Below are positions 3,672-29,581 of a stretch of 33,892 nucleotides of DNA, in pieces. The stretch comes from an uncultured Ruminococcus sp. (GTDB lineage Bacteria > Bacillota > Clostridia > Oscillospirales > Ruminococcaceae). The number at the start of each line of letters is the position of its first letter. Positions within the stretch are counted from its first letter, which is position 1. A program made the translations under genes and the position numbers. The stretch lies in assembly GCA_964466485.1 (NCBI GenBank), contig CAYXNU010000001.1:1-33892 (forward strand), written 5' to 3'. The notes under the pieces are model-generated. The model saw only the letters and a list, made by a program, of their open reading frames with translations, made no database searches and was not told the origin of the DNA.

Positions 3672-4373
3672 TTAAATAACGTATGTACCAACTTCAACGT
3701 TGATATTATACTTTTGCACTTGATTTTGTATCTGTTTTTCGCAACGCAAAAGTTCTTCGTTTAGGGCGTTTATTTGCAACTGCAAATTGCACATATCTTG
3801 TGATACTGGGTCGGGTATGTGGATTTGGTCGCATATATCGTGCGTGTTGACTCTTTTGCCATTAACCTTTACTATTCTAGCTGGAACGCCCACAGCAGTG
3901 CTATTTGGGGGAATAGCCGACAACACTACAGCATTAGAGGCTATCTTAGTATTGTCGCCCACGGTAAAAGGTCCTAAAACTTTAGCCCCAGAGCCAACCA
4001 TTACGTTGTTGCCCAGTGTAGGATGTCTTTTGCCTTTATCCTTGCCAGTACCACCGAGAGTCACCCCTTGATATAGTAAGCAGTTGTCGCCTATTTCTGC
4101 GGTTTCACCGATAACTACTCCCATGCCGTGGTCTATAAATAGTCCCTTGCCTATTTTTGCCCCAGGATGTATTTCTATTCCTGTGCAAAATCTAGCCCAC
4201 TGGGAGATTATACGGGCAACCGTGAAAAGCTTATGCATATAGCAAAAATGCGATAAACGGTAGTACCAAACAGCGTGTAAACCCGAATACGTTGCCAAAA
4301 TTTCAAAAGTATTTTTTACTGAGGGGTCACGTTCCTTAATTAAGGAAATATCTTCTTTTAAACGTTTAAACAT
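3672..4373 (-). CDS. cysE: Serine O-acetyltransferase
   Basis: Hexapeptide-repeat core IHPGAKIGKGLFIDHGMGVVIGETAEIGDNCLLYQGVTLGGTG...RHPTLGNNVMVGSGAKVLG and a Gram-positive-type C-terminal tail (PDPV...). AGGTGA lies 7 nt upstream of ATG 4373. It sits 40 nt downstream of the NRPS stop with no terminator between them. Confidence 0.9.
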   Translation of the reverse strand: MFKRLKEDISLIKERDPSVKNTFEILATYSGLHAVWYYRLSHFCYMHKLFTVARIISQWARFCTGIEIHPGAKIGKGLFIDHGMGVVIGETAEIGDNCLLYQGVTLGGTGKDKGKRHPTLGNNVMVGSGAKVLGPFTVGDNTKIASNAVVLSAIPPNSTAVGVPARIVKVNGKRVNTHDICDQIHIPDPVSQDMCNLQLQINALNEELLRCEKQIQNQVQKYNINVEVGTYVI

Positions 4374-4413
4374 CACATCATCACCTAAAAATATTTATCT
4401 CATATGGATAGCT

Positions 4414-7400
4414 TTAAAACTCTGCAAAGTCGTAGTCTTCGGATGTTTCGTCTATAGATATTTGCTCATCAACCTTACTAGCAAGTTCTCTAATAGTTTG
4501 AATTTGGAAGATATCTTGTAAGGAAACAGTTATATTGAACCTATCTTTAAGAGCGTTCATGCACTGTATAGCTATCAAGGAATCCCCACCTATTTCAAAG
4601 AATTTTTCAGTTACACCGATATTTTCATTCTTTAGGATATCGCACCAAACCTCATAGAGTTTTTGTTCTGTAGCGGTTTCGGGCTTGAGAATGTTCTTAA
4701 TAGGTATGTGTTTGCTGTAGTTGTTAGCAACGCTTAAGAGATATTTTCTGTCAACCTTGCCGTTAGCGGTTATAGGAACGCTATCCATGATTACATATCT
4801 GCTAGGCAACATATAGTCTGTTAGTTTTTCTGTAGCCGTTTTGGAAATTTCATTGATGTTTACATTTGCAAAGTTGGAACTATCTTTGGTTATGTATAGA
4901 CCAGTCCTCATGGATTGCTCTACTGTAGAACCATTGCCAAAAGCTTTTATCACATCAAGGCTAGACTTTTTAAAGGTGTTAAGCCACTGTTCGTTGTTTA
5001 GCAAAGGCAAGAACGTATCTTTTCTTAAGTCCTCAAAGTGGCTAAAGCCGTCTTCTAGAAAACCTGCGGTATTCATGACGAAACAGTTATTTTCCAGTTG
5101 TTCAATAACTATTAAGATACCGTTTCCTTTTAGTAGGGACTTTATATTATCCAAAGCGGTATTAACGTTACTAGAGCGATGTATAGTATTGTCAGCGATG
5201 ATTATATCATAGGTGTGGGTATCTGTGCCTTGTTCGTATGGTGAAACTTCCATATCAAAGGTAGAGTATTTAATATCACTGCTTTCAACGTTAGACTTTT
5301 TCTGTTCTATAAAGTAGCTAGAAGTATCTAGGTATGTGTAAGTAGTGTTGCTAAAGTCTAAGTTTTGGGATATAAACTCTGTGAAACTTCCCGAACGTGT
5401 ACCAATTTCGGCAATGTTTAAAGGTTGCTCTTTGGAAACGTTTTGTATAGCTTTAACTACTTTTAGCACAGACGCATATTGACAATTAGCGGTTATATTG
5501 AACTTGCTCATAAATAGTGGTGTTAAAGGTGCATCGCTAGATATAAACAACTCTAAAGGGTTAGTCTTTCCTTGCAACACTGAAACTATTACTTCTAAGC
5601 TACAGCTAAATATTAGGTTTAACTCGTTAAATTCATTATCGAAACCGCCAACCACTGCATACTTATAAGCCTTTTCCTTAAAGGTGTACAAGCCATTTTC
5701 AAGGACTGCTAAGCCTTTATTAGATAGTACTTTTAGCCAGTTGCCCACTAGGTGATAGTATCTAGTATCTATGGAATATTTGCTAACAATATCGTCAAGG
5801 CTTATAGGAGAACTTTCACTAAATATTCCCATAGCGTTGAAAATCTTGCAAACAACATCCACTGATATGTTTTCTAAGTTTTGATAGAAATCATCTAGCT
5901 GTTGAGCGGAAAGCCTGTTAGTATCAAAGAAGTTTTGAACGATATCGTCAATGGTAAAGTCACTAGGTAGTACAGCCTTTGGATTTTCTTCAGTTTTTGG
6001 GACTATAAAGTCTACTATCTGTTTGTTGTCGGTAACTACCGCATAGGACTGTTTAACCGTTGGATTAGTCTTAATAACTTCTTCAATTTCGCCTAGTTCT
6101 ATTCTAAAACCGTGAATTTTAACTTGAAAATCTTCACGACCTAAAAACTCTATGTTTCCGTCGGGGAGGTATTTTCCAATGTCGCCAGTATTGTATACTA
6201 TTTCGTCATGGTACTTTATAAATCTTTCGGAGGTTATTACGGGGTTGTTAAGGTATCCAGTAGCCAAACCAACACCACCTATATATAGAGTTCCTACGAC
6301 GTTTACGGGGCAACTCTGCATTAGTGAGTTTAATATATAGAAACGCTGATTTTTCAAAGGTTTGCCGTAAGGTATGCTATTCCAGTTGGGGTTTATGGTA
6401 TCAATTTTGTAGAAGTTCGACCAAATAGAAGCCTCAGTAGCACCACCCAAACTGATAACATCAACATGACTAAAAGTATCCTTAATGCTATTTGGGAGTT
6501 GTAAAGGTATCCAATCTCCGCTTAGTAGAGCCAACCTTAAGGAGAAGTTTTCCTTGACGATATCCTTAGAGTATTCTAGTAGCATTTGCATAAACGCTGG
6601 GACTGTGTTCCAAATGGTTACTTTTTCAGTTGACATCAACTGTAGCCAACTTTCGGGGTTTTTAACGTTGTCTTCCTTAACGATTACTATAGCACCGCCA
6701 CATGAGAACATTCCAAAGATATCGTAAACGGATAGGTCAAAGTTCAAGTTTGATAGTGCAATAGTTCTGTCGTTTGGAGTAACGCTAAAACGTTCGTTAA
6801 TATCTAATATGGTATTTACTACACCCCTATTGTTTATAGATACACCTTTGGGCTTTCCTGTAGAACCCGACGTATATATTACATAGGCAAGGCTATCGCT
6901 AGTGGATTGTGCATTGATATTTTCACTACATTTTGGAATATCTTCTAAGATTACGAAACTGGTATCTATAATGCCTAGGTTGTACTTTTCATAGGAGTTT
7001 CTATCCGTGACTATGTAGTCAACGTTTGCCTCGTGTAGAATATCTTCAACACGCTGTTTTGGATACTTTATATCTAGTGGTACATAGCCACCGCCCGTCT
7101 TTATTACGCCCATAACGCTAACTATTTGGTTAATGCTTTTTTCAACCATGACACCTACTAACTTGTGTACACCCATGCCGTTCTTAAGTAGAACGTTTGC
7201 GATATCGTTAGCTTTGGTATTTAGTTGGGCATAGGTTAAAGCGGTAGTGCTATCTGTGATAGCTACGTTGTTTGGGTACTTTTGAACAGTTTTGTTAAAC
7301 AAGCTTAAAAGCGTTTCCTTAGATATTTCGCTTTGGGTGTTGTTAGCTTGAACTACCTCATTAGGTAGGATAATATTTGCTATGCTTTTTTTATCTTCTA

Positions 7401-10400
7401 TCCAAAGGGCTTTGTTATCTATTAAGGCATCAACCAATCTAGAATAGGTTTCAAACATTTCATCAACCATACTTTCTGGGAAGATTTCCTTAATAAAGTC
7501 TAGAACTAGTATTAGTTTTCCGTTCTCCTCTGAAACTTGATGGTCTAGCCAAACCTGTGGTGTTTCGGAACTTCTGTACACTCTGTTATCGAAAAGGCTT
7601 TGCTTTTCGTTTTTGTTCAAGCCTAAAGCACTAGTAAACACCACTGGAAATAGTAAGCTTTTAGCATCGTGTTTTTTAGTAAGTTCACGCTGTAGGGCAA
7701 CGCCGTCATAGTAAGGGTGGTCTAAATCTTTCCAAAGTTGTTGTTGAAGTATACGGCATCTTTCAAGGAAGTTATTTCCTTTAGAGAAGTCTGTTTCTAG
7801 CAACGTTAAGGAAGTAAAGTCGCCTATAATACTGTTAATATTTTCATGTAGGGGCAATCTGTTAAAGTGAGTCAAGTTTATAGTAAATTGTGGTTTTCTG
7901 CTCCAAACGTTTAATATTTCAACGTAGATACCTATTAGTAGTCCTGATGGTGTAATGCCACCGTATTCGGAAATAGTATTCTTTAGGGTGTTCCACCTAT
8001 CGTGTGGTACGACTTTTTCAAGGTGTGTAAACTGATAGTTTCCAGTGACGTTTTTCAAAGGTAGTTCGGGAGCTAGTGGAATAGTATCCAATCTGTCTAG
8101 CCAATAATTTTTGCTATCTTCATATAGGGTAGTTTCTTGAATAGCATCGTAGGCTACCATATAGTCCCTAAAGGATACGCCTATATCGTCTAGTATGCCG
8201 TTTGGGTTTTCATAGAAGTATTGCCATTCATTAAATAGTAAGAATATGCTAAAGCCATCAAAGATGATGTTATCAAAGCATAGGTTTAGACGATAGTTGC
8301 TATCATTAACTTTTATAACTCTAATATCGAATAGTGGAAAAGTTTCAGCGGTAAATAGCTTGTGGGACATTTCCTCACGGAGTTGCAATATAAAACTATT
8401 AGTTTCCTCAACGGGCTTGTTAGAGTAGTCATAGATAGGAATGGTATAGCTAGGCATATCTTTTAAAACCTGTTGGGACTGTCCATCTGGGAGTATTACA
8501 GTTCTCATCATATCTTGACGTGCAATAACCTTAAGTAGTGCAAGGTTAAGCTTTTCAACGTCAAGGGAAGTGTTTTCCACTTCAAAGTAATAGTGTGTAG
8601 ATATGTTTCCGAAATCGTAAATACCTTTTCTGCCTATTAGATATGCTTTCTGTACTTCAGTCATAGGGAAAGGCTCAAAGCGGTTTTTCTCATCATGTTG
8701 AATCTGTTTAAGGGGTTCTTCTTTGGTAGTGGTTTCCTCGCTAATGTAAAGTGTAACTCTTTCAGCCTGTTTTGAAAGTGTTGGGTATTCAAAGATATCT
8801 TCTAAAGAGAACTTTATGTTAAAACTTTCCTTAATGATATTACTCAAACGCACTGCGGATAGTGAATCCCCACCGAGTTCAAAGTAGTCATCGTTTAAGC
8901 TTACACGGGCAATTCCCAGTGTAGACTGCCATATATTAGCTAAAGATTTTTCCACTTCTGTGTTGGGTGCTATGTACTCTTTTTGAACTAGTACGCTTTC
9001 GTCAATCTCATAGGATGCCAAAGCTTTTTTATCGACTTTTCCGTTGGCGGTTATAGGTATGGAATCCAAAAAGATGTATACATTAGGTATCATGTAGTTT
9101 GGCAATTTAGAGTTTAGGAACTCTCTAATGTCATTCTTAAAGGTAGTTTCGTCAAGGTTAGACTTATCCTTTGCGACTATGTAGGCTACTAAGTGGTTGT
9201 TGTTAAGGGTATCTTTAAAGGTAGTAACTACATAGTTTTCCAACTTGCCGAACTTATTTAAAGCACTTTCTATTTCGCCTAGTTCTATTCTGTGTCCTCT
9301 AACTTTAACTTGAAAGTCTTTTCTTCCTAAAAACTCTATTATGCCGTCTTCTCTAAATCTTCCCAAATCTCCAGTCTTGTACCATCTTTTGTTGTTTTCG
9401 TCCATAAAGAAATGTGCTTGAGTCTGTTCGATATTGTTGCAGTAGTCTAGTGCAAGACCGTCACCACCGATTAAGAGTTCACCAGTAACCCATTCAGGAC
9501 AACCATAGCCCTTATCATTGACGATATTGTATTGCTGATTAGATAGCGGTTTGCCATAAGGTATAGATACCCATTCGCTGTTTAGTGGTAGAGAAACATC
9601 AAAGTAGTTCGACCAAATGGAAGCTTCTGTAGCACCACCCATGGAAGTTAGTTCGGAGTTTTCTGCGATAGCCTTTAGTTTGTATGGTATAGTTAAACCA
9701 ATCCAATCTCCAGAGAGGAACACTCTTTTTAGTGAGGGCAATGTAACGTTGCTATTTTCAGCAGATACTAAAAGCATATCTAGTATTGCAGGTACGGAGT
9801 TCCAAACGGTAACGTTGTACTTTAACACCGCTGATAGCCATCTTTCGGAGTTTCTTTTGTCGTTCTCATCGATAGTTATTATAGTACCACCAGCGTTTAA
9901 CATTCCAAAGATATCGTATACAGATAGGTCAAAGTCTAGGGAAGATATTGCTAGTATGCTATCATTCTCATTGATGTTGTACCTATCGTTAATATCGTAA
10001 ATAGTATTGTATGCACACCTATGTTGAATTTCAACGCCTTTGGGTTCTCCCGTTGAGCCTGATGTAAAGATGATATATGCTAAACTGTCTAAGTCTATGG
10101 TTACATCTTGTAAAGTGTTTTCGCTGTAGAGTAGTGCATCTTCTATTGAAACTACTGTTGCACTAGTTGGAAATTCTATACTAGAAATAGTATTGCTATC
10201 GGATAGCACAAACTTAATGTTTGCTCTGTTGTGTATGGAGGTTTGTCTATCCACTGGCTGATTTACTCCAATAGGTACATAACAACCATTAAACATTACA
10301 ACACCCAAAACAGCCTCTATTTGAGATATTCCTTTTGGGAGTGTTATAGCAACTTTGTCGTGGGGTTTAGCCCCACAGGATAGCAACTTATTTGCTATGT

Positions 10401-12180: not shown

Positions 12181-12182
12181 AA

Positions 12183-13802: not shown

Positions 13803-13827
13803 GAATATAACCTCCTATAATTTAGTT

Positions 13828-15125: not shown

Positions 15126-15371
15126 TTAATCGTTTTTAGATGAGGTTATAAAGTTTGCAAGTTCTTGAACAGTTTCATTTTCATAAATATCACTGATAAG
15201 TATTTCGATGTTGTGCTTTTCTAGCAATTCACTTGCTAGATAACTTGCTTTTAGTGAGTTTCCACCTAGTTCAAAGAAAGAACTTTCAGTTGTAACTTCT
15301 TCTTCCACCTCTAAAATGTTTTTAAAAAGTTCCTTAATTATACCAACGTAATCCATAGTTTTTTCTCCTTT
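15126..15371 (-). other. Carrier-protein segment of the TE-T gene, preceded by an in-frame internal RBS and ATG
   Basis: On the minus strand, AAAGGAG (15371-15365), 8 nt, then ATG (15356-15354, Met270) in the same frame as the TE. No stop codon separates the two parts. Confidence 0.6.
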
Positions 15372-20967: not shown

Positions 20968-22062
20968 TCAAATAAGACACTCCTCTTGAATATCGCATAT
21001 ATGTGAACTATATACGCTGTAATCTTCAAAGACGTTTAAACTTTCAAGGTTGTGCCAAATATCTTCAACGTACTTTGAACAGTATATAGGATACACACCG
21101 CTATCAATATTTCCGTTGTATATAGATAGTGCTTGTGCCACGGCGACTGCTCCCGTTAAGTACTGTTGACTTTCCACGGTTAATGCGGTAGTAACTGCCT
21201 TAGGTTTTCCGTCGTTGTCTAGACCGTCAAGTTGTACTAGGTATTGAACATATTTCCTATCGTCAAGCACATCTTGTTTAGATACTTCAACTAATTCATC
21301 TATAGTGTTTTCAATACTGTTTTTGTACTTTGAGGGCAACTTCTCAAAAAATTCTAACATATTCTTTCCACTGGTAGCACTGTACCATTCACTGTGGTTG
21401 CACTGTGTAAAGTCTGCCACATACTTAGTTTCGTCATCGTAGTAAGGGAATAGCTTTACTGCATTAAAAAGTTTTGGAAGTACAATCTTATTAAAAGCCC
21501 TGTTGCTATTGAAAAAAGAGTTTCTATCCTTATAGATATACATAACATCGTTGTTGTTGCCATGCATAATGCCGTTTAAATAGTCTTTACTGGCAATGTG
21601 ACTAAAAACTCCTTTTATCTCATATATGGATACTATGTTTTCCACTTTGCTAAAACCTTTGGACTGCACTAGGGGTAACATTCCTGAAACCCCTGGCACT
21701 GACCCTGAGCAGTATACTATAGCGTTATTAGTGTTAGTATACTTGCAAGTATCCACATTGCACAAGCCAACATCTACTAGATGTGTTTGCTTTTTAATAG
21801 CCATATCTATTAGAAGTGGTGTACTCTTGTAAGATGAACCTGAACAGTTAATAACGATACTACATCCGTTGAAAAATTCCTCAAGTGTATCTTGTGAGAA
21901 TATATCAACGTTCTTACAGATGGCATTATTTATACCACTAGGTATACTATTGCTATTGATGTTTCTACTGCCAACTTTAATAGTTTCGTTTGGCAAAACT
22001 TTAGATAGTATCTCTAAAGCCTTAGAGCCTATACTTCCAGTACCGCCCAATAGACCTATCAT
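20968..22062 (-). CDS. Saccharopine dehydrogenase-like NAD(P)-binding oxidoreductase
   Basis: N-terminal Rossmann motif MIGLLGGTGSIGSKA, then ...VDIFSQDTLEEFFNGCSIVINCSG...LVDVG, typical of the Sacchrp_dh_NADP fold. AAGGAGGTG RBS upstream of the ATG. Confidence 0.6.
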   Translation of the reverse strand: MIGLLGGTGSIGSKALEILSKVLPNETIKVGSRNINSNSIPSGINNAICKNVDIFSQDTLEEFFNGCSIVINCSGSSYKSTPLLIDMAIKKQTHLVDVGLCNVDTCKYTNTNNAIVYCSGSVPGVSGMLPLVQSKGFSKVENIVSIYEIKGVFSHIASKDYLNGIMHGNNNDVMYIYKDRNSFFNSNRAFNKIVLPKLFNAVKLFPYYDDETKYVADFTQCNHSEWYSATSGKNMLEFFEKLPSKYKNSIENTIDELVEVSKQDVLDDRKYVQYLVQLDGLDNDGKPKAVTTALTVESQQYLTGAVAVAQALSIYNGNIDSGVYPIYCSKYVEDIWHNLESLNVFEDYSVYSSHICDIQEECLI

Positions 22063-22076
22063 AAAAAATCACCTCC

Positions 22077-23825: not shown

Positions 23826-23841
23826 AAAGTCACCCCCCTAA

Positions 23842-25590
23842 TTAAAGTTTCCAGTTTATCGCAGATTGATATTCTTCCCACATGGAGGCATATACTCCAT
23901 CTTTGGCTAACAACTCTTTATGTGTTCCGCTTTCGCAAATAGAGCCTTGTTCCATAACTATTATGTTATCGGCATTGCACACCGTTGAAAGCCTATGGGC
24001 AATCATTAGGACTGTTTTACCTTTAATTAATCTTTCTAGTGCCTTTTGAATTTCGTGTTCATTTTCGGGGTCAGCAAAGGCTGTAGCCTCGTCTAGTATT
24101 ACTATTGGAGCGTCTTTTAGTATAGCCCTAGCAAGGGTAATCCTTTGCACTTCTCCCCCCGATAGGTACACACCATTAGAGCCTATAACAGTATTCAATC
24201 CATCGGGGAACTTTCTAACTATATCCATGCACATGGCACTTTCCAAAGCTGACATAACTTCCGTATCAGTAGCGGTAGGCTTAGCCATCTTAACGTTTTC
24301 TAGAATGGTAGTTTTAAATATATGGTTATCTTGAAATACAAAAGATACTCTATCCATAAGTTCACTGGTGGATATATCCTTAACGTTCACACCACCTATA
24401 GATACCGAACCGCTTTCAACATCCCAAAACCTAGGTATTAGACTAGCTACAGTAGTCTTACCACTACCCGAATGCCCAACTATTGCAGTAGTGCTTTTAT
24501 CTGGAATGTTAAAAGTCACACCGTTTAGTATAGTTTTGCCATCCTGTTCATACTTAAAGAAAACATCCTTAAACTTAATGGAATTGTCTTTGGGTACTTG
24601 TGGAGTAGCAGTTTCGTCCAAAGTAGTTTCGTTCAAGATACTTTCTATCCTATGTTGAGCCTCTTTGGCTGACATTAAACTTTCACTTAAACTTATAACT
24701 TTGCTAAGCATACTAGCACACAACGGTGTAAATATAGTATAGAATATAAAGTTTACTAAAAACCTTTGATAGTCCACAGCAGACGCTACTAACAAAATAG
24801 CACCTATCACAAGGAACACTACACTAGCGTTTATAGATACTATAGACGAACACATGGGCATTCTAACGCTAATAGTATAGTTCACAGACCAATCTTTGTA
24901 GCGTTGTATTGAACTAAAAAAGTTCTTAAATGAGAATATACTCTGCTGAAAAGTTTTAACTACTGGAATACCCCTAATGTATTCAACAGCTTGACTATTC
25001 ATATCGTCTAGGGCGTTTTGGTACTCTTTCATGGATTGCATAAGCTTTTCGCCCGTCATACTACCCATAAAGAAGATACTTATAAATATCGGTACTAGAC
25101 CAATCAAGCCCAGTTTCCAGTCGATTTTAAATAGCACTGCAATAACACCTATTAGCGTTACTACAGCCCCAATGCAATCAGGGAGAAGATGTGCTAAAAA
25201 TTCTTCAGTCCTTGAGGCACTTTCGTCTATGGTACGTCTTAACTTGCCACTGCTATTGTTGGTAAAGTATCCTAGTGGTAGGTTAATCAAGTGGTGCAAC
25301 GACATACTTCTCATGTTGGTTGCAACTTTAAAAGCTGTAATATGCGAAAATATCAGCGATAGTATATATATGAAAATACTAACAATAGAGAACACCACCG
25401 CCATAATTCCATAATGTTTTAAGTTTGTAGCTTTTGAAAAGTCTGGGTAGTACTTGAAAACATCCGAAACTACTTTCCAAATGTAGTAGTATGGCACAAG
25501 CGATATTATCGAACTTAAACCCGAAAATATCCACGCAACCACCATTAACGTTTTATGCTTACCCGCATAGTAAAAAAGATTCCTTTTCAC
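23842..25590 (-). CDS. ABC transporter, fused permease/ATP-binding protein (type I exporter fold), likely heterodimer partner
   Basis: 582 aa with a TM region. Walker A GHSGSGKTT, signature LSGGEVQR, Walker B IVILDEATAFAD. GTG start. Confidence 0.88.
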   Translation of the reverse strand: MKRNLFYYAGKHKTLMVVAWIFSGLSSIISLVPYYYIWKVVSDVFKYYPDFSKATNLKHYGIMAVVFSIVSIFIYILSLIFSHITAFKVATNMRSMSLHHLINLPLGYFTNNSSGKLRRTIDESASRTEEFLAHLLPDCIGAVVTLIGVIAVLFKIDWKLGLIGLVPIFISIFFMGSMTGEKLMQSMKEYQNALDDMNSQAVEYIRGIPVVKTFQQSIFSFKNFFSSIQRYKDWSVNYTISVRMPMCSSIVSINASVVFLVIGAILLVASAVDYQRFLVNFIFYTIFTPLCASMLSKVISLSESLMSAKEAQHRIESILNETTLDETATPQVPKDNSIKFKDVFFKYEQDGKTILNGVTFNIPDKSTTAIVGHSGSGKTTVASLIPRFWDVESGSVSIGGVNVKDISTSELMDRVSFVFQDNHIFKTTILENVKMAKPTATDTEVMSALESAMCMDIVRKFPDGLNTVIGSNGVYLSGGEVQRITLARAILKDAPIVILDEATAFADPENEHEIQKALERLIKGKTVLMIAHRLSTVCNADNIIVMEQGSICESGTHKELLAKDGVYASMWEEYQSAINWKL

Positions 25591-25616
25591 AAAAAATGTT
25601 ACACTCCCTTTAAATT

Positions 25617-26999
25617 TTATAGTTTTGTTAAAACTAACGATTTATTACAGGTTTTCGATACCAACTCCTCATCATGAGTAACTATTAGTATTATCTTTCC
25701 ATCTTTAGATAGCGACTTAATTAAGTTAGAAACTCTAAGCATATCATCATAATCAAGTCCACTGGTAGGCTCGTCAAATACTAATATATCCCTATTGCAT
25801 AGATAACTATCGGCTATCGCTAAACGCTGTGCTTGTCCTCCCGAAAGTGCCATAGGATGACGGTTTTCAAAGCCACTTAGCCCCAACTTGTGGAGTATAT
25901 CTTTTGCATCGCTTTCAGTAGCGGAGTTTCCTAGCATAGTTTCTCCAATAACGCTATTTGAAAACAGTTGATGATTTACATCTTGCATGATTAAAAAAGT
26001 TAGTCTTTGCCTTTGCTTAGCAGATAGTTCTTTGCCATTTAGAGAAATACTCCCTGACTTTTGTTTTATCAAACCGCATAGGCACTTTATCAGTGAACTT
26101 TTACCAACACCGTTGTTCCCTAAGATAGCTAATATATCACCCTTGTTTAGCGAAAACGATATGTTTTCTTGAACGGTTTTCTTACCAAAAGAAAGTTTTA
26201 AATCTTTTACGCAAAGGGTATCACTGGAAGTATATTCGCAAGTGGATACCTTTAGCGGTTCTCTAACGATTTGACGTAAGCCTAAAAGTTCCCTCTTAGA
26301 AGTAGAAAGTTTCTTAAACTCTAAGTTAGACATAGCTAACTCTAGCTTACCACTATCGAAATAGAAAGCACGGTCTATAAGGTCTGCTATGTACCAAAAT
26401 CTATGTTCGGCAATGATTATCGTTTTGCCTTGAGATTTTAAAATCTTAAGTATGTTGGATAGATGTTCCATGCTCTTTATATCCAAATTAGATGACGGCT
26501 CATCCAAAAGTATAATATCACTGCCCATAGCGTACACCGACGCAATAGCTATCTTTTGCTTTTGCCCACCTGATAGCTTAAATAAATCCTTGTCGAGTAG
26601 TTCTTGTATATCTAAATCTTTAGTAGTTTCTTGTAATCTTCGTTGCATTGTGGGTCTGTCAACTCTAAGGTTTTCCATTCCGAATACTATTTCGTCAGTG
26701 GTATTGAGATTAAAAAACTGTGACTTTGGGTTTTGGAATACCGAACCAACCATCTTTGAAAGTTCCCACGATTTCATTTCACTAATGGGATAGCCATCAA
26801 TCAACGCAGAACCGCTTATATTTCCCTCTTGAAAGTTTGGGATTAGTCCATTAATAATCTTTGTGACAGTAGTCTTTCCGCTACCGCTTTTGCCACAAAG
26901 TAACACAAACTCTCCACTATTGATTTTAAAGCTACAGTCTGTTAAACTTTTACTTTGATTTTCACCATAGGTATAGCTAACGTTGTCGAATACTACCAT
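25617..26999 (-). CDS. ECF-type transporter ATPase with duplicated ABC domains (EcfA-EcfA' fusion)
   Basis: Two nucleotide-binding units: GKSGSGKTT / LSGGQKQK / ILLDEPSSNLD and GNNGVGKSS / LSGGQAQR / LVFDEPTSGLD. There is no TM region. ATG 26999 overlaps the upstream stop (ATGGTAG). Confidence 0.85.
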   Translation of the reverse strand: MVVFDNVSYTYGENQSKSLTDCSFKINSGEFVLLCGKSGSGKTTVTKIINGLIPNFQEGNISGSALIDGYPISEMKSWELSKMVGSVFQNPKSQFFNLNTTDEIVFGMENLRVDRPTMQRRLQETTKDLDIQELLDKDLFKLSGGQKQKIAIASVYAMGSDIILLDEPSSNLDIKSMEHLSNILKILKSQGKTIIIAEHRFWYIADLIDRAFYFDSGKLELAMSNLEFKKLSTSKRELLGLRQIVREPLKVSTCEYTSSDTLCVKDLKLSFGKKTVQENISFSLNKGDILAILGNNGVGKSSLIKCLCGLIKQKSGSISLNGKELSAKQRQRLTFLIMQDVNHQLFSNSVIGETMLGNSATESDAKDILHKLGLSGFENRHPMALSGGQAQRLAIADSYLCNRDILVFDEPTSGLDYDDMLRVSNLIKSLSKDGKIILIVTHDEELVSKTCNKSLVLTKL

Positions 27000-27664
27000 A
27001 TAAATCCACACACCACCAATCCTAAAAAGATTACCATTAAAACGAAATCCCACCAGTGAAACTTAACTTCTATAAAGGAAGTTTTTTCGTTAGGGTTTTC
27101 AATACCTCTTGTAACTGCCGAGGCTGATAAATCATCCGAAATTTGCATACTATTAACAATCATCGGCATATAAAGATATTCTATCTTATTAAATATTCCC
27201 TTAATCTCTCTTAATTTCATAGCGTTTCGTATTTCCGAAAACTCCTCTTTAATCGTTGGAAAATATCGGATAAGTACTGCTAGTGAAATTATTAAGTTAT
27301 TAGGGAGTTTCATTAACCTAAGCGATTCTAATATGGAACGGACTTTGGTAGTCTTTAGTAGGTATGTGGAGGGAAGTGTGCAAGGAAAAAGCCATCTAAA
27401 GTATATGAACACCGAGAACAACATACCAACGCTAGTTGAAACTTTAGGGATTAGCAAAAACTCTATTGCCGTCAATATGCCATATACTATGCCACATTCA
27501 ATAAGTTCTTTCCACAAGTTGGATACTATAAACATTACTATAAATATACATGACATTATCGCTATTATCCATGTGTTGTTGTTGAAATTCATAAATATTG
27601 CCATGATAGTCGCTAGTAACAGAAACACTTTAGTTCTAGGGTCGATTTTATTTGAAAAATCCAT
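26993..27664 (-). CDS. ECF transporter transmembrane (T) component, EcfT/CbiQ family
   Basis: 223-aa polytopic membrane protein between the S-like and ATPase genes. Arg-containing coupling-helix-like motifs AMKLREIKG and SAVTRGIENP. Confidence 0.75.
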   Translation of the reverse strand: MDFSNKIDPRTKVFLLLATIMAIFMNFNNNTWIIAIMSCIFIVMFIVSNLWKELIECGIVYGILTAIEFLLIPKVSTSVGMLFSVFIYFRWLFPCTLPSTYLLKTTKVRSILESLRLMKLPNNLIISLAVLIRYFPTIKEEFSEIRNAMKLREIKGIFNKIEYLYMPMIVNSMQISDDLSASAVTRGIENPNEKTSFIEVKFHWWDFVLMVIFLGLVVCGFIW

Positions 27665-27665
27665 G

Positions 27666-28253
27666 CTATACTATACCCGCCTTGATAAAGTGTTTTTTCA
27701 TTAAATTAGTACCTAAAAAGCCCCCAACTAACGAACCTACTAGCACACTTAATAGCACTATTACAATTGCAGGTGTGGAAGTCATTAAAGTAAGTTTTTC
27801 CAAATATTCGTCACTAAAACCAGAATCCCTCATGGATTGCATATAACTGTTGGTAGTCAACCAAACTGGTAAAAAGTCACCGATAAAGCCATAACTAAAT
27901 AGTATAAATGCACCTATCTGTGTGGATTTCTTTTTGTAGTCGCCAAACTTTAAAATTAATTCTGCCAACAAACCAAACACAATGCAAGTAATAGTTATCA
28001 TGTAACTTGCCACAAAAAAGACTATTCCTGTTAATAACGATACCATAAAAACAGCACCCGTTTTGTGTATCTTTGCGATTAATAGCATAAATATAGGTGC
28101 TAATAATATCGCATCTATGAAGTGCGAGGCAAACCAAACTACTGGGGCTATACCGCCACAAATCATGAAAACCATCCTAATAGCAACGCATAAAGCCCCT
28201 ATTATGCCTATGGTGATAGCATCTTTGGATGTGATTTTTTTACTATTCTTCAA
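27666..28253 (-). CDS. Putative ECF transporter substrate-capture (S) component, possibly MptD/Trep_Strep family
   Basis: 195 aa, about 6 TM helices, first gene of the S-T-A set. The C-terminal ...LMKKHFIKAGIV resembles my memory of MptD-family proteins. TTG start with GGAGAG 6 nt upstream. It is not BioY-like. Confidence 0.6.
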   Translation of the reverse strand: MKNSKKITSKDAITIGIIGALCVAIRMVFMICGGIAPVVWFASHFIDAILLAPIFMLLIAKIHKTGAVFMVSLLTGIVFFVASYMITITCIVFGLLAELILKFGDYKKKSTQIGAFILFSYGFIGDFLPVWLTTNSYMQSMRDSGFSDEYLEKLTLMTSTPAIVIVLLSVLVGSLVGGFLGTNLMKKHFIKAGIV

Positions 28254-28289
28254 TTAAAACTCTCCAATCTTTATATCAATTTATTAGTT

Positions 28290-28299
28290 AGCGTACGCT
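28290..28299. promoter_or_regulatory. Perfect 10-bp palindrome AGCGTACGCT in the operon leader (candidate operator)
   Basis: Self-complementary. It lies 11-21 nt downstream of the predicted minus-strand -10 box and 37 nt upstream of the S-component start codon. Confidence 0.4.
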
Positions 28300-28310
28300 T
28301 ACCGAGTAAT

Positions 28311-28340
28311 ATTATACTACACTGAAAATTTAAATACTAA
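28311..28340 (-). promoter_or_regulatory. Candidate promoter of the NRPS/transport operon (good -10, weak -35)
   Basis: On the minus strand, TATAAT (28316-28311) is preceded at 18 nt by TTAGTA (28340-28335), which matches TTGACA at 3 of 6 positions. Confidence 0.5.
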
Positions 28341-28366
28341 TCCAAAACGCTCAAAGTAATCCAAAA
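28338..28366. repeat. Two perfect 10-bp direct repeats TAATCCAAAA with a 19-bp period (candidate AraC-type binding sites)
   Basis: Copies at 28338-28347 and 28357-28366. The proximal copy overlaps the weak -35 of the minus-strand promoter. The repeats lie between the divergent promoters. Confidence 0.55.
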
Positions 28367-28402
28367 ATGCAGATATATTTTTAAAACAACTTTCCCCACC
28401 AC

Positions 28403-28432
28403 TTGACAAAAACCACTAGTTTATGTTATAAT
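28403..28432 (+). promoter_or_regulatory. Strong sigma-70-type promoter upstream of the AraC-family gene
   Basis: TTGACA (28403-28408), 18-nt spacer ending in the extended -10 TGT, then TATAAT (28427-28432). This predicts a leader of about 190 nt before ATG 28631. Confidence 0.65.
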
Positions 28433-28630
28433 AGCTTTAGATGAGCTGTTAAAAAAGTATTTGTTTGAATGTTTTTTAGGACAAATACTTTCAACTAGAT
28501 TATATTTTTATATTGATAAAGCTATGTTTTACGTCAAAATAGAACATATTATATATTGTATTTGAGTTAGCTTAGGCTAACTAAATTATATTAAAAAATT
28601 TAAATCAATATAAAACGGGAGTGTTATTTT

Positions 28631-29581
28631 ATGAGTAAAAATCAAGTTTTCAAAGAGTTTTCTAACCTAAACGATTGTACAATATACAGGTACACACAAG
28701 GCGAAAAAGAAAGCACTATAAATACCATAAGCGTATTTAATGGTATTAATATAATATTAATGAACTTAAACTCTTGTAATATTGCACCTGATATATCTAT
28801 GTACAAGCCTAATAACATTCTATTAATAAACCTGTGCATATTTGGAAGATGTGAAATGACTCTAAGGAACAACCAAAAAACCTCGCTAAATGCAGACGAA
28901 ATCTCATTTAATATAACATATCCCTCTAAGTGCAACTACCCCTTTGGTTACTATAAAGAAATAGGCTTACTAATAGATTTTAACTCCCTTGATATCGATA
29001 CTAAAAAAATGCTCTCTAGATTTAACATTAATCTTGAAAAAATTCAAAAATATATCATAAACCAAAATGGATATAAAATATACAACATAGGCAAAAACCA
29101 AAAGTTGAAATCTATCATAAAAACATTAACTCTCCAAAATGACTTAATAGAGTACAGATTATCCACATTAAAGATACTATACAACATTTCAAAGTATATA
29201 GATATTTTCATATCTAGCGAACAGGCTTACTTGCCTAGTTTGAAAATAGATATAGTACAAAAAGTGCGTTTAAAAATCTGTGGCGATTTAAAAAAGCATT
29301 ATTCAACAAAAGACCTATCAAATGAGTTTAATATTAGCAGTAGCACCCTTGAAAGATATTTCAAGGCAGTATATGGCATAAGCATTTCTAAGTTTCTCCA
29401 AAAAGAACGCATGAACGTTGCTAGTAACTTGCTAAAAGACACAACCATGAAAATCTCCGATATTGCGTACTCTGTGGGATATGAAAACCAAAGTAAGTTT
29501 ACCGCAACTTTCAAAAAAACTTTTGGTGAAACTCCTAACAACTTTAGGAAGTTCAATAGGCATATATTAAACGCCAATTAG
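28631..29581 (+). CDS. AraC/XylS-family transcriptional regulator
   Basis: C-terminal double HTH: STKDLSNEFNISSSTLERYFKAVYGISISKFLQKERMNVASNLLKDTTMKISDIAYSVGYENQSKFTATFKKTFGETPNNFR. The N-terminal ~200 aa are not assignable. RBS GGGAG upstream. Confidence 0.88.
   Translation: MSKNQVFKEFSNLNDCTIYRYTQGEKESTINTISVFNGINIILMNLNSCNIAPDISMYKPNNILLINLCIFGRCEMTLRNNQKTSLNADEISFNITYPSKCNYPFGYYKEIGLLIDFNSLDIDTKKMLSRFNINLEKIQKYIINQNGYKIYNIGKNQKLKSIIKTLTLQNDLIEYRLSTLKILYNISKYIDIFISSEQAYLPSLKIDIVQKVRLKICGDLKKHYSTKDLSNEFNISSSTLERYFKAVYGISISKFLQKERMNVASNLLKDTTMKISDIAYSVGYENQSKFTATFKKTFGETPNNFRKFNRHILNAN

What the first reader, a model, noticed from the sequence alone, without database searches (positions are those of the whole stretch)
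3672..29581. Roughly 24.6-kb operon for an aryl-capped, three-cysteine (poly-thiazoline) NRPS product in a low-GC Firmicute, with its own PPTase, transporters, precursor gene and regulator
Seen in sequence:
- 14 co-directional minus-strand genes (28253 down to 3672) with gaps of at most 40 nt and several start/stop overlaps (ATGGTAG at 26993-26999, TAATG at 16807-16811).
- The block is bracketed by hairpin terminators at 3628-3655 and 29605-29635, with a divergent AraC gene.
- Three Cy-A-T modules, an N-terminal ArCP, a stand-alone EntE/YbtE-type ligase, an MT insertion, a reductase, two thioesterases, a free C domain and a PPTase.
Established knowledge: aryl-acid ligase + ArCP-Cy-A(Cys) + embedded MT + thiazoline reductase + AraC regulator + fused ABC pair is the pyochelin/yersiniabactin logic of Proteobacteria.
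Inference: the product is an aryl-thiazol(in/idin)e trimer-type metallophore-like molecule.
The locus differs from both paradigms in these ways:
- no PKS module, and a third Cys module on a separate docking-domain protein;
- a free-standing C domain and a Cys-nucleophile TE fused to a carrier;
- an ECF-type transporter and cysE in the operon;
- a non-PchG-type reductase.
I cannot tell from sequence alone whether this architecture has been described.
Basis: partly seen in the sequence, partly recalled or inferred. Interest (0 to 1): 0.9.

Follow-up and report, generated by a model that had tools for sequence, protein, structure and literature searches.

The report
Aryl-capped poly-thiazoline metallophore gene cluster
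This is a real 24.6-kb operon in a gut or rumen-type Firmicute that most likely builds and re-imports a cysteine-derived metal-binding molecule of the known equibactin/coelibactin kind, with an unusual, uncharacterised chain-ending unit.

Summary
Fourteen co-directional minus-strand genes (28253 to 3672) encode an ECF importer, two fused ABC half-transporters, a saccharopine-dehydrogenase-fold (SDH-like) reductase, three Cy-A(Cys)-T modules, an aryl-acid ligase, a PPTase, two thioesterases, a free C domain and cysE. One correction: the type II thioesterase carries an in-frame TAA.

The interpretation (aryl-capped tris-heterocycle metallophore) is supported. Most features flagged as unusual have published precedent:
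- Equibactin has no PKS, a three-gene importer plus an ABC pair, an essential SDH-family oxidoreductase (EqbM) and no salicylate synthase.
- Sorangibactin, mupirochelin and coelibactin have three Cy modules on two NRPSs, a Cys-nucleophile TE and an essential SDH-like enzyme. Mupirochelin also has an AraC regulator.

What remains uncharacterised is a sub-family seen here in metagenomic loci of 28–65% GC:
- It has no Irp3/PchG-type reductase.
- The third Cy domain is an E-x4-D variant.
- A GHCTG thioesterase, a divergent C domain and an extra carrier form one unit (TE-T, C-T or one TE-C-T protein).
- The aryl-ligase pocket is non-canonical.

I also found a DtxR/IdeR-like operator pair in the promoter region.

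Verdict: new variant of a known kind, moderate interest.

The parts
27666..28253 (-). ECF transporter S (substrate-capture) component, MptD/Trep_Strep family; first gene of the operon
   Evidence: PF09605 1.7e-48; TIGR02185 126 bits against a cut-off of 76
26993..27664 (-). ECF transporter T component (CbiQ family)
   Evidence: PF02361 4.9e-17
25617..26999 (-). ECF transporter fused A-A' ATPase; ATG at 26999 overlaps the TAG of the T gene
   Evidence: Two ABC_tran stretches, 2.6e-60; ECF_ATPase models about 287 bits; junction read
23842..25590 (-). Fused TMD-NBD ABC half-transporter 1 (YbtP/EqbK-like layout)
   Evidence: ABC_membrane + ABC_tran; 81% identical orthologue in L001
22077..23825 (-). 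Fused TMD-NBD ABC half-transporter 2
   Evidence: ABC_membrane + ABC_tran
20968..22062 (-). Saccharopine-dehydrogenase-fold NAD(P)H oxidoreductase (EqbM/SrbE/MchE type); proposed thiazolinyl imine reductase
   Evidence: PF03435 8e-9. AF2 model pLDDT 94.7. Foldseek top hits are carboxyspermidine DH, L-Lys DH and saccharopine reductase, TM about 0.7. Family of 548 representatives. Homologue sits in a mupirochelin-type gene order in L017, E 8e-30
17591..20956 (-). NRPS3: TubC_N docking domain, Cy3 (E-x4-D variant), A3 (Cys, DLYNMSLIWK), T3
   Evidence: Pfam; BmdB 2.8e-186; motif conservation; A code; start codon
16809..17588 (-). Type II thioesterase (GHSLGG) interrupted by an in-frame TAA at 17429-17427; apparent pseudogene or sequencing error
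   Evidence: the stop replaces Glu of PVEIPGR; orthologues are intact (262, 261 and 249 aa)
16138..16809 (-). Sfp-type 4'-phosphopantetheinyl transferase
   Evidence: ACPS + AASDHPPT_N
15126..16163 (-). Type II-like thioesterase with Cys nucleophile (FGHCTG) fused to an extra carrier domain Tx (GGNSL)
   Evidence: Thioesterase 2.8e-23 + PP-binding 2.1e-12; RifR 1.2e-23; Cys conserved in all relatives at 34% identity or more
13828..15105 (-). Free-standing, highly divergent condensation domain (active-site DHTMFDG)
   Evidence: PF00668 1.3e-37; weak PDB hits only; fused to T in L005 and to TE and T in L010
12183..13802 (-). Stand-alone aryl-acid adenylating ligase (DhbE/EntE/YbtE family) with non-canonical pocket NFSSLGVLCK
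   Evidence: DhbE 2.5e-139, salicylate ligase 5.4e-129; code comparison over 120 homologues
4414..12180 (-). NRPS1. Domains in window coordinates: ArCP 11956-12180; Cy1 10546-11895; A1 9001-10545; T1 8746-8958; Cy2 7351-8703; A2 5956-7350 plus 4696-4860, with an embedded methyltransferase at 4861-5955; T2 4441-4683; acidic C-terminal docking tail
   Evidence: Pfam; sequence motifs; A codes; methyltransferase best hits are PKS C-MTs, CurJ 1.4e-26
3672..4376 (-). Serine O-acetyltransferase (cysE), cysteine supply; last gene of the operon
   Evidence: TIGR01172 241 bits against a cut-off of 211; a hexapeptide-repeat homologue also sits in the related cluster L005
28566..28585 (-). Operator-like site 2: TTTAGTTAGCCTAAGCTAA, 16/19 match to the DtxR/IdeR iron box; lies just downstream of a minus-strand -10 box
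   Evidence: One match at 3 mismatches or fewer, 0.03 expected; palindrome GTWAGC-N4-GCTWAC; promoter scan
28287..28302 (-). Operator-like site 1: GTTAGCGTACGCTTAC palindrome, just downstream of TGTAGTATAAT and about 35 nt upstream of the ECF-S start
   Evidence: Two palindrome matches in the window, both in this intergenic region, 0.01 expected; sequence; a similar site is upstream of the L001 operon
28631..29581 (+). Divergent AraC-family regulator
   Evidence: HTH_18 1.4e-23; perfect TTGACA-18-TATAAT promoter at 28403-28432
3622..3659 (.). Bidirectional intrinsic terminator closing the operon (and the serpin gene)
29610..29629 (.). Bidirectional terminator between araC and bioB

Best explanation
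The locus is a biosynthesis, export and uptake operon for an aryl-capped, cysteine-derived tris-heterocycle metallophore. It belongs to the equibactin / coelibactin-sorangibactin-mupirochelin branch of the pyochelin/yersiniabactin logic.

Proposed course; steps 1-3 are well supported by sequence, the later steps are inferred:
1. The PPTase primes five carrier domains.
2. The stand-alone ligase adenylates an aryl acid and loads the N-terminal ArCP of NRPS1. The acid is probably a 2-hydroxybenzoate-type compound. It is not made by the cluster and is not plain salicylate or DHB by pocket code.
3. Cy1-A1-T1 and Cy2-A2(MT)-T2 add and cyclise two Cys. Ring 1 could be Ser-derived, as in sorangibactin. 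The embedded PKS-C-MT-like methyltransferase adds one methyl, either on Cα or on a reduced ring nitrogen.
4. The acidic C-terminal tail of NRPS1 docks on the TubC_N domain of NRPS3, which adds the third Cys ring (Cy3, E-x4-D type).
5. The SDH-fold NAD(P)H enzyme, from an imine-reducing superfamily, reduces one carrier-bound thiazoline to a thiazolidine. In this sub-family it does the job that an Irp3/PchG enzyme does elsewhere.
6. The GHCTG thioesterase, the divergent C domain and the extra carrier Tx form one termination unit. The A-less C-Tx module most likely appends a fourth, uncyclised residue loaded in trans (probably Cys). The Cys-thioesterase then either releases the product or shuttles the aminoacyl group onto Tx, as SyrC and CmaE do.
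7. The ABC pair exports the product and the ECF S/T/AA' system re-imports the metal complex.
8. cysE boosts cysteine supply.
9. A DtxR/IdeR-family metallorepressor encoded elsewhere shuts the operon off when metal is plentiful, and the divergent AraC protein adds a second control.
For: - Domain identities and order.
- Cy motifs and best solved relatives are all Cy-A(Cys)-T proteins.
- The ligase is in the DhbE/salicylate-ligase family at 1e-129 to 1e-139.
- The reductase model (pLDDT 94.7) matches the carboxyspermidine DH, L-Lys DH and saccharopine reductase folds.
- Its family (548 representatives) lay in Cy-domain NRPS clusters, next to or near a Cy3-type module, at each place with enough flanking DNA: L001, L004, L005, L006-L009, L010/L011 and L017. 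Short contigs were uninformative: L012 (4.2 kb) shows only an adjacent ABC gene, and L016 (3.5 kb) shows no NRPS gene, only an Asp/Glu racemase next door.
- One member, in L017, sits in the exact mupirochelin/sorangibactin gene order: ABC pair, SDH, MT, MT, Irp3-like, VOC, AraC.
- Literature: EqbM and SrbE (SDH family) are required for production (PMC3672683, PMC10127202). In the systems with a solved or predicted structure, the number of thiazolidines equals the number of reductase genes: pyochelin and yersiniabactin have one of each, sorangibactin and mupirochelin have two.
- Fusion patterns (TE-T, C-T, TE-C-T) tie the three termination parts together.
- GHCTG is conserved in the whole clade.
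- The DtxR-like operator pair is present and is conserved in L001. EqbA, a DtxR-like repressor, controls eqb.
- eqbHIJ is required for equibactin-dependent iron uptake (PMC3672683).
Against: - No product, metal or phenotype is known for any member of this sub-family.
- No aryl-acid synthase is in the window.
- The ligase pocket (NFSSLGVLCK) matches neither the DHB nor the salicylate code, and it varies among the closest orthologues.
- In most other contexts the SDH-like enzyme co-occurs with an Irp3-like reductase. It may therefore do something other than thiazoline reduction.
- The methyltransferase SAM loop is degenerate (EIGTRSG).
- The type II thioesterase is broken in the window, and the C gene is frameshifted in the closest relative L001. 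Parts of the system may therefore be dispensable or decaying.
- The window Cys-thioesterase is not detectably related to the C-terminal Cys-TE of a coelibactin-type NRPS.
- That EqbHIJ is an ECF system was not tested here.
Confidence: 0.8

Rival explanations
1. The product is made by the same assembly line, but its main role is not metal acquisition. It could be an antibiotic or antagonistic arylthiazoline, or a signal, with the ABC and ECF systems serving export, immunity or recycling.
For: Related arylthiazoles show antibiotic or anti-oomycete activity: bilothiazoles (PMC11934131) and mupirochelin, described as a weak siderophore with strong antagonism (PMC10080011). No Fur box is present in the window.
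Against: The DtxR/IdeR-like operators sit at both minus-strand promoters. A dedicated ECF importer is part of the operon. The eqbHIJ importer genes are required for iron uptake in equibactin (PMC3672683). The overall chemistry is that of known metal chelators.
Confidence: 0.15
2. The SDH-like enzyme is not a thiazoline reductase. It performs another step shared by this family, for example a redox or epimerisation step on the third module's intermediate, or a reductive amination that supplies the nucleophile used at chain release. All rings of the window product would then stay thiazolines.
For: It co-occurs with a bona fide Irp3-like reductase, often as the adjacent gene, in L006, L007 and L017 and in eqb, srb and mch (PMC3672683, PMC10127202, PMC10080011). 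This argues for a non-redundant role. Its structural relatives catalyse reductive amination between an amine and a carbonyl. Its function is stated to be unknown in PMC10127202.
Against: Sorangibactin and mupirochelin carry two thiazolidines and two reductase genes, whereas pyochelin and yersiniabactin carry one of each. The gene is always linked to a Cy module. Imine reduction is exactly the chemistry needed to turn a thiazoline into a thiazolidine.
Confidence: 0.35
3. The GHCTG thioesterase is not the release catalyst. It is a SyrC/CmaE-type Cys-dependent aminoacyl shuttle that loads the A-less carrier Tx from another carrier. Release is then done by the Ser thioesterase (the gene broken in this window) or happens spontaneously.
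For: The unit is A-less (C plus T). In the single-protein version the thioesterase comes before C-T (TE-C-T), which is unlike a terminal C-A-T-TE. By established knowledge, SyrC loads the A-less last module of SyrE, and CmaE shuttles between carriers; both use a Cys nucleophile in an α/β-hydrolase fold. The second thioesterase gene always directly follows NRPS3.
Against: The sequence sits in the type II thioesterase family (RifR 1e-23), not in the SyrC/CmaE lineage as far as tested. The Cys-TE of sorangibactin is a release domain (PMC10127202). A Cys-loading A domain could load Tx in trans, as in yersiniabactin and equibactin.
Confidence: 0.35
4. The cluster in this genome is non-functional or decaying, so no product is made.
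For: There is an in-frame TAA in the type II thioesterase, upstream of its catalytic Ser. The closest relative L001 has a frameshifted C gene.
Against: All other 13 genes are intact, including 3.7 kaa of NRPS. The thioesterase remnant shows no further damage, so the stop is either recent or an assembly error. By established knowledge, type II editing thioesterases such as PchC and YbtT lower yield but are not essential.
Confidence: 0.12

Closest known systems
Equibactin cluster eqbA-N of Streptococcus equi ICESe2 (PMC3672683), with the uncharacterised Clostridium kluyveri CKL_1505-1523 cluster
   Same: - A Firmicute aryl-capped three-Cy NRPS without a PKS.
- A stand-alone aryl ligase, PPTase and type II thioesterase.
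- An essential Pfam saccharopine-DH-family oxidoreductase (EqbM).
- A three-gene importer (eqbHIJ) followed by two fused ABC half-transporters (eqbKL).
- No aryl-acid synthase in the cluster.
- DtxR-type metal control: EqbA there, a DtxR-box-like operator here.
   Different: - eqb has a single A domain serving three carriers; the window has three.
- eqb has a YbtU-type reductase (EqbF), an inactive C-terminal TE on EqbG and an α/β-hydrolase (EqbN).
- The window has none of these. It has instead a GHCTG thioesterase-T, a free C domain, cysE and an AraC gene.
- The eqb ligase has a salicylate-type Cys at position 239/240; the window has Ser.
Coelibactin-type clusters: sorangibactin srb (PMC10127202) and mupirochelin mch (PMC10080011)
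   Same: - Two NRPSs with the same split: CP-HC-A-CP-HC-A-CP, then a docking HC-A-CP protein. The window NRPS3 is 42% identical over 937 aa to a coelibactin-type third-module protein (L017).
- All A domains are predicted to load Cys.
- An SDH-type oxidoreductase that is essential and of unknown function.
- An active-site Cys thioesterase.
- An ABC half-transporter pair.
- An AraC regulator (mch).
- A residue beyond the three heterocycles (sorangibactin: homocysteine thiolactone).
   Different: - srb and mch also have an Irp3-like reductase, two stand-alone methyltransferases, a P450, a VOC protein and a salicylate synthase.
- Their Cys-TE is a C-terminal type I domain, not detectably related to the window's type II-like enzyme.
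- They have no free C domain, extra carrier, ECF importer or cysE.
- Their hosts are Proteobacteria, Myxobacteria and Actinobacteria.
Pyochelin (PchDEFG) and yersiniabactin (YbtE, HMWP2/1, YbtU)
   Same: - Aryl ligase, ArCP-Cy-A(Cys), and a methyltransferase embedded in an A domain (PchF).
- Thiazoline to thiazolidine reduction.
- An AraC regulator (PchR/YbtA).
- A fused ABC pair (YbtPQ).
   Different: - The reductase belongs to a different fold family (Gfo/Idh/MocA there, saccharopine-reductase fold here).
- The window has three Cys modules with no PKS.
- Termination is different.
- The importer is an ECF system rather than a TonB-dependent receptor.
- Control is by a DtxR-type operator rather than Fur.
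Uncharacterised syntenic metagenomic loci (L001, L004, L005, L010/L011) and clostridial genome clusters such as C. saccharobutylicum CP006721 (L013)
   Same: - L001, L004, L005 and L010 share gene order and 35-82% identity for nearly every gene. This includes the SDH-like gene, E-x4-D Cy3, the GHCTG thioesterase, and the ligase followed by the large NRPS (about 2600 aa where its length is on record, L001 and L010).
- L013 shares the AraC gene, thioesterase, PPTase, ligase, and the 2.5-kaa NRPS followed by a docking NRPS.
   Different: - Regulators differ: MarR-like in L001, LysR in L010.
- L001 lacks the ECF genes at its operon start.
- L004 has a stand-alone carrier, a different C domain and a Gfo/Idh/MocA gene.
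- L013 has a chorismate-binding (salicylate synthase-type) gene, a salicylate-type ligase code and larger methyltransferase-containing modules.

Membership tests
Aryl-capped thiazoline NRPS (pyochelin/yersiniabactin logic) | Stand-alone aryl-acid adenylating enzyme of the DhbE/EntE/YbtE family plus an N-terminal aryl carrier domain | tested here: met
   DhbE 2.5e-139 and salicylate ligase 5.4e-129; N-terminal PP-binding with GLSS motif
Aryl-capped thiazoline NRPS (pyochelin/yersiniabactin logic) | Heterocyclization (Cy) domains with a D-x4-D motif instead of HHxxxDG | tested here: met
   Cy1 DIDLLVAD and Cy2 FDNIIFD. Cy3 is IEFIIAD, a conservative E-for-D change conserved in 8 loci. Best solved relatives are Cy domains
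Aryl-capped thiazoline NRPS (pyochelin/yersiniabactin logic) | Cys-specific A-domain codes | tested here: met
   DLYNFSMIWK, DLYNLSLIWK and DLYNMSLIWK, aligned to BmdB. Caveat: a sorangibactin A domain predicted as Cys actually loads Ser (PMC10127202)
Aryl-capped thiazoline NRPS (pyochelin/yersiniabactin logic) | PchG/YbtU/Irp3-type (Gfo/Idh/MocA) thiazolinyl imine reductase | tested here: not met
   No GFO_IDH_MocA or Irp3-like_C hit on any window protein. Such genes are present in L006, L007 and L017
Aryl-capped thiazoline NRPS (pyochelin/yersiniabactin logic) | Salicylate or DHB synthase genes in the cluster | tested here: not met
   No chorismate-binding or isochorismatase protein in the window. 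One is present in C. saccharobutylicum L013
Yersiniabactin type | PKS module (KS-AT-KR-ACP) between the NRPS modules | tested here: not met
   No ketosynthase or acyltransferase domains
Equibactin type (eqb) | SDH-family oxidoreductase (EqbM) in the cluster | tested here: met
   PF03435 hit and fold match. Direct sequence comparison with EqbM was not possible because no Eqb sequence was on hand
Equibactin type (eqb) | Three-gene importer followed by two fused ABC half-transporters | tested here: inconclusive
   The window has ECF S/T/AA' plus two ABC_membrane-ABC_tran genes in that order. The paper describes eqbHIJ only as two permeases plus an ATPase. An ECF importer next to an equibactin-like NRPS is reported for S. 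lugdunensis
Equibactin type (eqb) | One A domain loading all three peptidyl carriers | tested here: not met
   Three complete Cys-type A domains
Equibactin type (eqb) | DtxR-family repressor control | tested here: inconclusive
   No DtxR gene in the window. A DtxR-box-like operator is present (16/19 match, 0.03 expected) and a second palindrome copy lies nearby. A similar site is in L001. Binding was not tested
Coelibactin/sorangibactin/mupirochelin type | NRPS split CP-HC-A-CP-HC-A-CP plus docking HC-A-CP | tested here: met
   NRPS3 is 42% identical over 937 aa to the L017 third-module protein
Coelibactin/sorangibactin/mupirochelin type | SDH-type oxidoreductase homologous to SrbE/MchE | tested here: met
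   The window enzyme against the SDH gene of L017, which has the mch/srb gene order: 23% identity over 367 aa, E 8e-30
Coelibactin/sorangibactin/mupirochelin type | C-terminal type I TE domain with an active-site Cys on the last NRPS | tested here: not met
   NRPS3 ends at T3. The Cys enzyme is a separate type II-like thioesterase, unrelated at sequence level to the L017 TE domain GYCLGG
Coelibactin/sorangibactin/mupirochelin type | Accessory set: Irp3-like reductase, two stand-alone methyltransferases, P450 and/or VOC protein | tested here: not met
   None of these in the window
ECF-type ABC importer | S component + T component + two ATPase domains | tested here: met
   TIGR02185 is above its cut-off. 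The other parts are family-level matches: CbiQ Pfam hit and a double ABC_tran protein, with the ECF-T and ECF-ATPase NCBIfam models below their equivalog cut-offs

The most novel reading that the evidence does not exclude
This sub-family could be a natural 'SDH-only' case that reveals two new activities.

- Saccharopine-reductase-fold enzymes (EqbM, SrbE, MchE; essential but unassigned in three published systems) would be a second, non-Irp3 class of carrier-dependent thiazolinyl imine reductase. They would be paired with a distinct (E/D)-x-x-I/L-A-D-W Cy subtype.
- The GHCTG thioesterase, divergent C domain and A-less carrier would form a previously undescribed termination unit. It would add a fourth residue by Cys-mediated acyl shuttling before release.

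The product would be a new arylthiazoline metallophore scaffold from uncultured dockerin-bearing Firmicutes and a 65%-GC lineage.
Probability: 0.35. Interest if true: 0.65.

Novelty: new variant of a known kind. Interest (0 to 1): 0.45.

Why it matters
Arylthiazoline metallophores are virulence and competition factors, yet almost none from anaerobic Firmicutes has a known structure. Even the structure of equibactin has not been determined.

- The SDH-type oxidoreductase. Knockouts show it is indispensable in equibactin and sorangibactin, and the sorangibactin authors explicitly flag it as unexplained. Here it is the only reductase in the cluster. A single expression and knockout experiment could therefore assign its function without interference from an Irp3-type enzyme.
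- The Cys-thioesterase. The TE/C/T fusion series gives a clear hypothesis for what a Cys-nucleophile thioesterase does in these pathways.
- Ecology. The cluster suggests that cellulosome-type gut or rumen bacteria compete for metals with a dedicated chelator that is taken up through an ECF transporter.

Tried and rejected
- Source organism and exact matches. An exact look-up of the window C protein found nothing. Two scans of GTDB genomes with reductase alignments gave nothing (A1) or only distant Halothermothrix and Fibrobacter MAG loci (A4). A 65-sequence alignment was too diverse to scan with. Cluster look-ups show only that the window is an NCBI contig and that its nearest relatives are metagenomic.
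- First structure model. The reductase model built from 3 sequences was useless (pLDDT 41.5). The 65-sequence alignment fixed this.
- RNA elements. Rfam gave no riboswitch, T-box or other RNA family in the window.
- Fur control. No Fur box was found even at 3 mismatches, so Fur control was rejected.
- PchE-like epimerase reading of the methyltransferase insert. Rejected, because the insert hits PKS C-MTs and not PchE.
- Polyamine-synthesis reading of the SDH-like gene (a VibH-like amine for the free C domain). Considered because of the carboxyspermidine DH fold match. Judged less likely because the gene tracks Cy3-type modules even in loci without the free C domain.
- Common origin of the two Cys-thioesterases. 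Not supported: only a 48-residue local match, E 0.001.
- P0163 (Eubacterium MAG ligase) context look-up failed. The P0065 and P0061 contigs were too short to be informative.
- A literature search for Arachnia propionica NRPS work found nothing relevant.

Full report
**1. The observation**

The window holds 14 co-directional minus-strand genes between 28253 and 3672.

I read the junctions directly:
- ATGGTAG at 26999-26993, where the ECF ATPase start overlaps the T-component stop.
- TAATG at 16811-16807.
- A 2-nt gap between NRPS3 and the next gene.
- All other gaps are 37 nt or less.

NRPS3 most likely starts at ATG 20956, behind an AAGGAG, and not at 20998. This agrees with the L001 orthologue.

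Bidirectional hairpin terminators lie at 3622-3659 and 29610-29629. An AraC gene is divergent at 28631-29581.

There is one correction. The type II thioesterase (17588-16809) has an in-frame TAA at 17429-17427. It replaces the Glu of the conserved PVEIPGR motif and lies upstream of the catalytic GHSLGG. Three orthologues are intact.

**2. What the genes are**

Pfam and NCBIfam give, in transcription order:
- an ECF S component (MptD/Trep_Strep, above the curated cut-off), an ECF T component, and a fused A-A' ATPase;
- two fused ABC half-transporters;
- a Sacchrp_dh_NADP protein;
- NRPS3, which is TubC_N dock-Cy-A-T;
- the interrupted type II thioesterase;
- an Sfp-type PPTase;
- a thioesterase fused to a carrier;
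- a free condensation domain;
- a DhbE-family ligase;
- a 2588-aa NRPS, which is ArCP-Cy-A-T-Cy-A(MT)-T;
- cysE, above its cut-off.

*Cy domains.* The three condensation-type domains in the modules are heterocyclization domains, with motifs DIDLLVAD, FDNIIFD and IEFIIAD. NRPS3 matches the solved bacillamide Cy-A(Cys)-T module at 2.8e-186. It also matches FmoA3, PchE, EpoB-Cy and HMWP2-Cy1.

*A-domain codes.* Read off an alignment to BmdB, the codes are DLYNFSMIWK, DLYNLSLIWK and DLYNMSLIWK. These are the Cys codes tabulated for HMWP2, PchF, BacA and MtaC in PMC3672683. A caveat applies: in sorangibactin an A domain predicted as Cys actually loads Ser. A1 is the most deviant code, so ring 1 could be an oxazoline.

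*Methyltransferase insert.* It is closest to PKS C-methyltransferases (CurJ 1.4e-26). It keeps the His/Glu dyad but has a degenerate SAM loop, EIGTRSG.

**3. The reductase**

The word-based search found only two relatives, at 67% and 58% identity, both in metagenome assemblies. The exhaustive profile search found a family of 548 representatives.

With 65 of them as alignment, AlphaFold gave a confident model (pLDDT 94.7). Its best structural matches are carboxyspermidine dehydrogenase, L-lysine dehydrogenase and saccharopine reductase, with TM about 0.7. All of these are NAD(P)H enzymes that act on C=N intermediates.

Wherever enough flanking DNA was available, the gene sits in a Cy-domain NRPS cluster, next to or near a Cy3-type module:
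- L001, L004 and L005;
- Halothermothrix and Fibrobacter MAGs;
- a 65%-GC lineage, L010/L011;
- a high-GC locus, L017, whose order is dock-Cy-A-MT-T-TE, ABC pair, SDH, MT, MT, Irp3-like, VOC, AraC. This is the published mupirochelin/sorangibactin order.

Two short contigs were uninformative: L012 shows only an adjacent ABC gene, and L016 shows no NRPS gene.

The window enzyme aligns to the L017 enzyme over its full length with E 8e-30.

The literature says that EqbM (Pfam saccharopine DH family) is required for equibactin activity. It also says that SrbE is essential with unknown function.

So the 'non-PchG reductase' is real, but it is a recurrent, published and unassigned component. What is particular here is that it is the only reductase. 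No Gfo/Idh/MocA or Irp3-like protein is in the window, whereas L006, L007 and L017 have one nearby, directly adjacent in L006 and L007.

I infer that it reduces one thiazoline, for two reasons:
- Pyochelin and yersiniabactin have one thiazolidine and one reductase, while sorangibactin and mupirochelin have two of each.
- Its fold family does imine chemistry.

This is an inference, not a demonstration.

**4. The termination unit**

*The thioesterase.* The carrier-fused thioesterase belongs to the type II family (RifR 1.2e-23) but has FGHCTG. Every database relative at 34% identity or more has GHC[T/L]G, and everything below that has GHSxG. This is therefore a discrete Cys-nucleophile clade. It is also found in Ruminococcus sp., a Eubacterium MAG and Arachnia propionica.

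*The C domain.* The free C domain keeps the catalytic His (DHTMFDG) but is very divergent.

*The fusions.* The thioesterase, the C domain and the extra carrier (GGNSL) are fused in different combinations:
- TE-T in the window and L001;
- separate TE, C and T in L004;
- C-T in L005;
- a single 759-aa TE-C-T protein in L010/L011.

That is strong evidence that they act together.

*Two readings remain.* There is no fifth A domain, so the C-T pair is an A-less module.
- In the second reading, the Cys-thioesterase is a SyrC/CmaE-like acyl shuttle that loads Tx. This precedent comes from my own knowledge and was not tested.

Sorangibactin also carries one residue beyond its three rings and needs a Cys-TE. 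However, that TE is a C-terminal type I domain with no detectable similarity to the window enzyme.

The C gene is frameshifted, and only 35% identical, in the otherwise 65-82% identical L001.

**5. Starter unit**

The ligase is firmly in the DhbE / salicylate-ligase family. No chorismate-utilising enzyme is in the window, as in equibactin, where salicylate must be supplied.

Its pocket code is NFSSLGVLCK. Most of the best 120 homologues listed (mostly metagenomic; the named ones are largely Clostridia) have the salicylate-type code NFCAQGV[L/I][S/C]K. The nearest orthologues have NFNSLGVSCK and NFNSLGVTCK.

The starter is therefore an aryl acid of uncertain identity. The pocket appears to be diversifying in this sub-family.

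**6. Regulation**

The 377-bp region between the ECF-S gene and araC contains two copies of the palindrome GTWAGC-N4-GCTWAC. These are the only two copies in the window (0.01 expected). Each lies just downstream of a minus-strand -10 box.

One copy is TTTAGTTAGCCTAAGCTAA. It matches the DtxR/IdeR iron-box consensus TTAGGTTAGCCTAACCTAA at 16 of 19 positions (one hit, 0.03 expected). The consensus itself is recalled from my own knowledge.

L001 has TTAGGTTAGCGTATGCTAA behind a TGATATAAT box, upstream of its first operon gene. There is no Fur box and no Rfam element.

Equibactin is controlled by the DtxR-like EqbA. This supports metal-responsive repression, and so a metallophore role. Binding was not tested.

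**7. Comparison with known systems**

*What the locus works like.* It follows the pyochelin/yersiniabactin logic.

*Membership.*
- It fails the pyochelin/yersiniabactin tests for an Irp3-type reductase, a PKS and an aryl-acid synthase.
- It shares with equibactin the Firmicute host, no PKS, an SDH enzyme, the importer plus ABC pair layout, no salicylate synthase and DtxR-type control. It differs in having three A domains and in termination.
- It shares with coelibactin-type clusters the two-protein, three-module split (42% identity of NRPS3 to L017), the SDH enzyme and a Cys thioesterase. It lacks their accessory set.

An ECF importer beside an equibactin-like NRPS has been noted in S. lugdunensis.

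Canonical relatives with AraC, a chorismate-binding enzyme and salicylate-type ligases occur in sequenced clostridia such as C. saccharobutylicum.

**8. Host**

The window is an NCBI contig from an unnamed organism. Several features point to a cellulosome-type Clostridia or Ruminococcus-like Firmicute:
- GC of about 36%;
- an ECF sigma / DUF4179 anti-sigma pair;
- a lipoprotein serpin;
- a dockerin-bearing protein at 33022-33892;
- a dockerin protein next to the L001 cluster.

**9. Verdict**

The finding is real and correctly interpreted. It is a new variant of a known kind rather than something categorically new.

The uncharacterised parts are:
- the SDH-only reduction;
- the E-x4-D Cy3 subtype;
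- the TE(Cys)/C/T unit;
- the odd ligase pocket.

These parts make it a useful system for resolving two questions left open in the equibactin and sorangibactin papers.

Interest 0.45.

Noticed in passing
window 17427-17429 (minus strand, within 16809-17588): An in-frame TAA interrupts the type II thioesterase where orthologues have Glu (PVEIPGR). The rest of the gene is undamaged. This is a recent nonsense mutation or an assembly error.
   Followed up: yes
window 28287-28302 and 28566-28585; L001 5349-5367: A pair of GTWAGC-N4-GCTWAC palindromes, one matching the DtxR/IdeR box 16/19. Each follows a -10 box in the operon promoter region. A similar site sits upstream of the related L001 operon.
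   Followed up: partly
window about 20300-20335 (Cy3 motif IEFIIADWASIW); L001, L004, L005, L006, L007, L009, L010: The Cy domain next to the SDH-like gene always has Glu instead of the first Asp of the D-x4-D motif, followed by ADW-x-SIW. A coelibactin-type locus (L017) has DSLIADWAS.
   Followed up: partly
L001 16149-17502: The free C domain gene of the closest relative is split by a frameshift (343 aa, then 83 aa in another frame). It is only 35% identical to the window's, while neighbouring genes are 65-82% identical.
   Followed up: partly
L010/L011 (65% GC) 12186-14465: A single 759-aa TE(GHCTG)-C-T protein sits in a high-GC organism. The gene order there is otherwise the same as the window (ECF S/T/AA', SDH, dock-Cy-A, TE, PPTase, ligase, 2605-aa NRPS), with a LysR regulator.
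   Followed up: partly
L014/L015 (Ruminococcus sp.-type contigs): The GHCTG thioesterase clade also occurs in a different NRPS context: a C-A-T-C-A-T NRPS, a thioesterase, a carrier, a ketosynthase, and an ABC/FtsX transporter.
   Followed up: no
window 2163-3599 (+): A serpin gene whose product has a lipoprotein-type signal (LTSCG) and a roughly 80-residue Thr/Glu-rich linker before the serpin domain. Serpins are uncommon in bacteria.
   Followed up: no
window 33022-33892 (+), runs off the end: A secreted protein with an N-terminal type I dockerin domain (29.3 bits, cut-off 22.9). This suggests a cellulosome-type host.
   Followed up: partly
window 29653-30615 (-) and 30691-30719: bioB (radical SAM + BATS) with a near-consensus extended -10 promoter (TTGACT-17-TATAAT with TG). 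It shares a bidirectional terminator with araC.
   Followed up: no
window 30776-32888 (-): An ECF sigma factor and a DUF4179 anti-sigma-like gene overlap by about 40 nt. They are unrelated to the cluster as far as can be seen.
   Followed up: no
window 12183-13802; P0160, P0161, P0178: The aryl-ligase pocket residues at positions 240 and 330 vary (S/N/A and L/S/T/I) among the closest orthologues, and Gln299 is replaced by Leu. Most of the best 120 homologues listed keep the salicylate-type code.
   Followed up: partly
window 28403-28432 (+) to 28631: The only perfect sigma-70 promoter for araC lies about 200 nt upstream of its ATG. The long leader that results contains operator-like site 2.
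   Followed up: no
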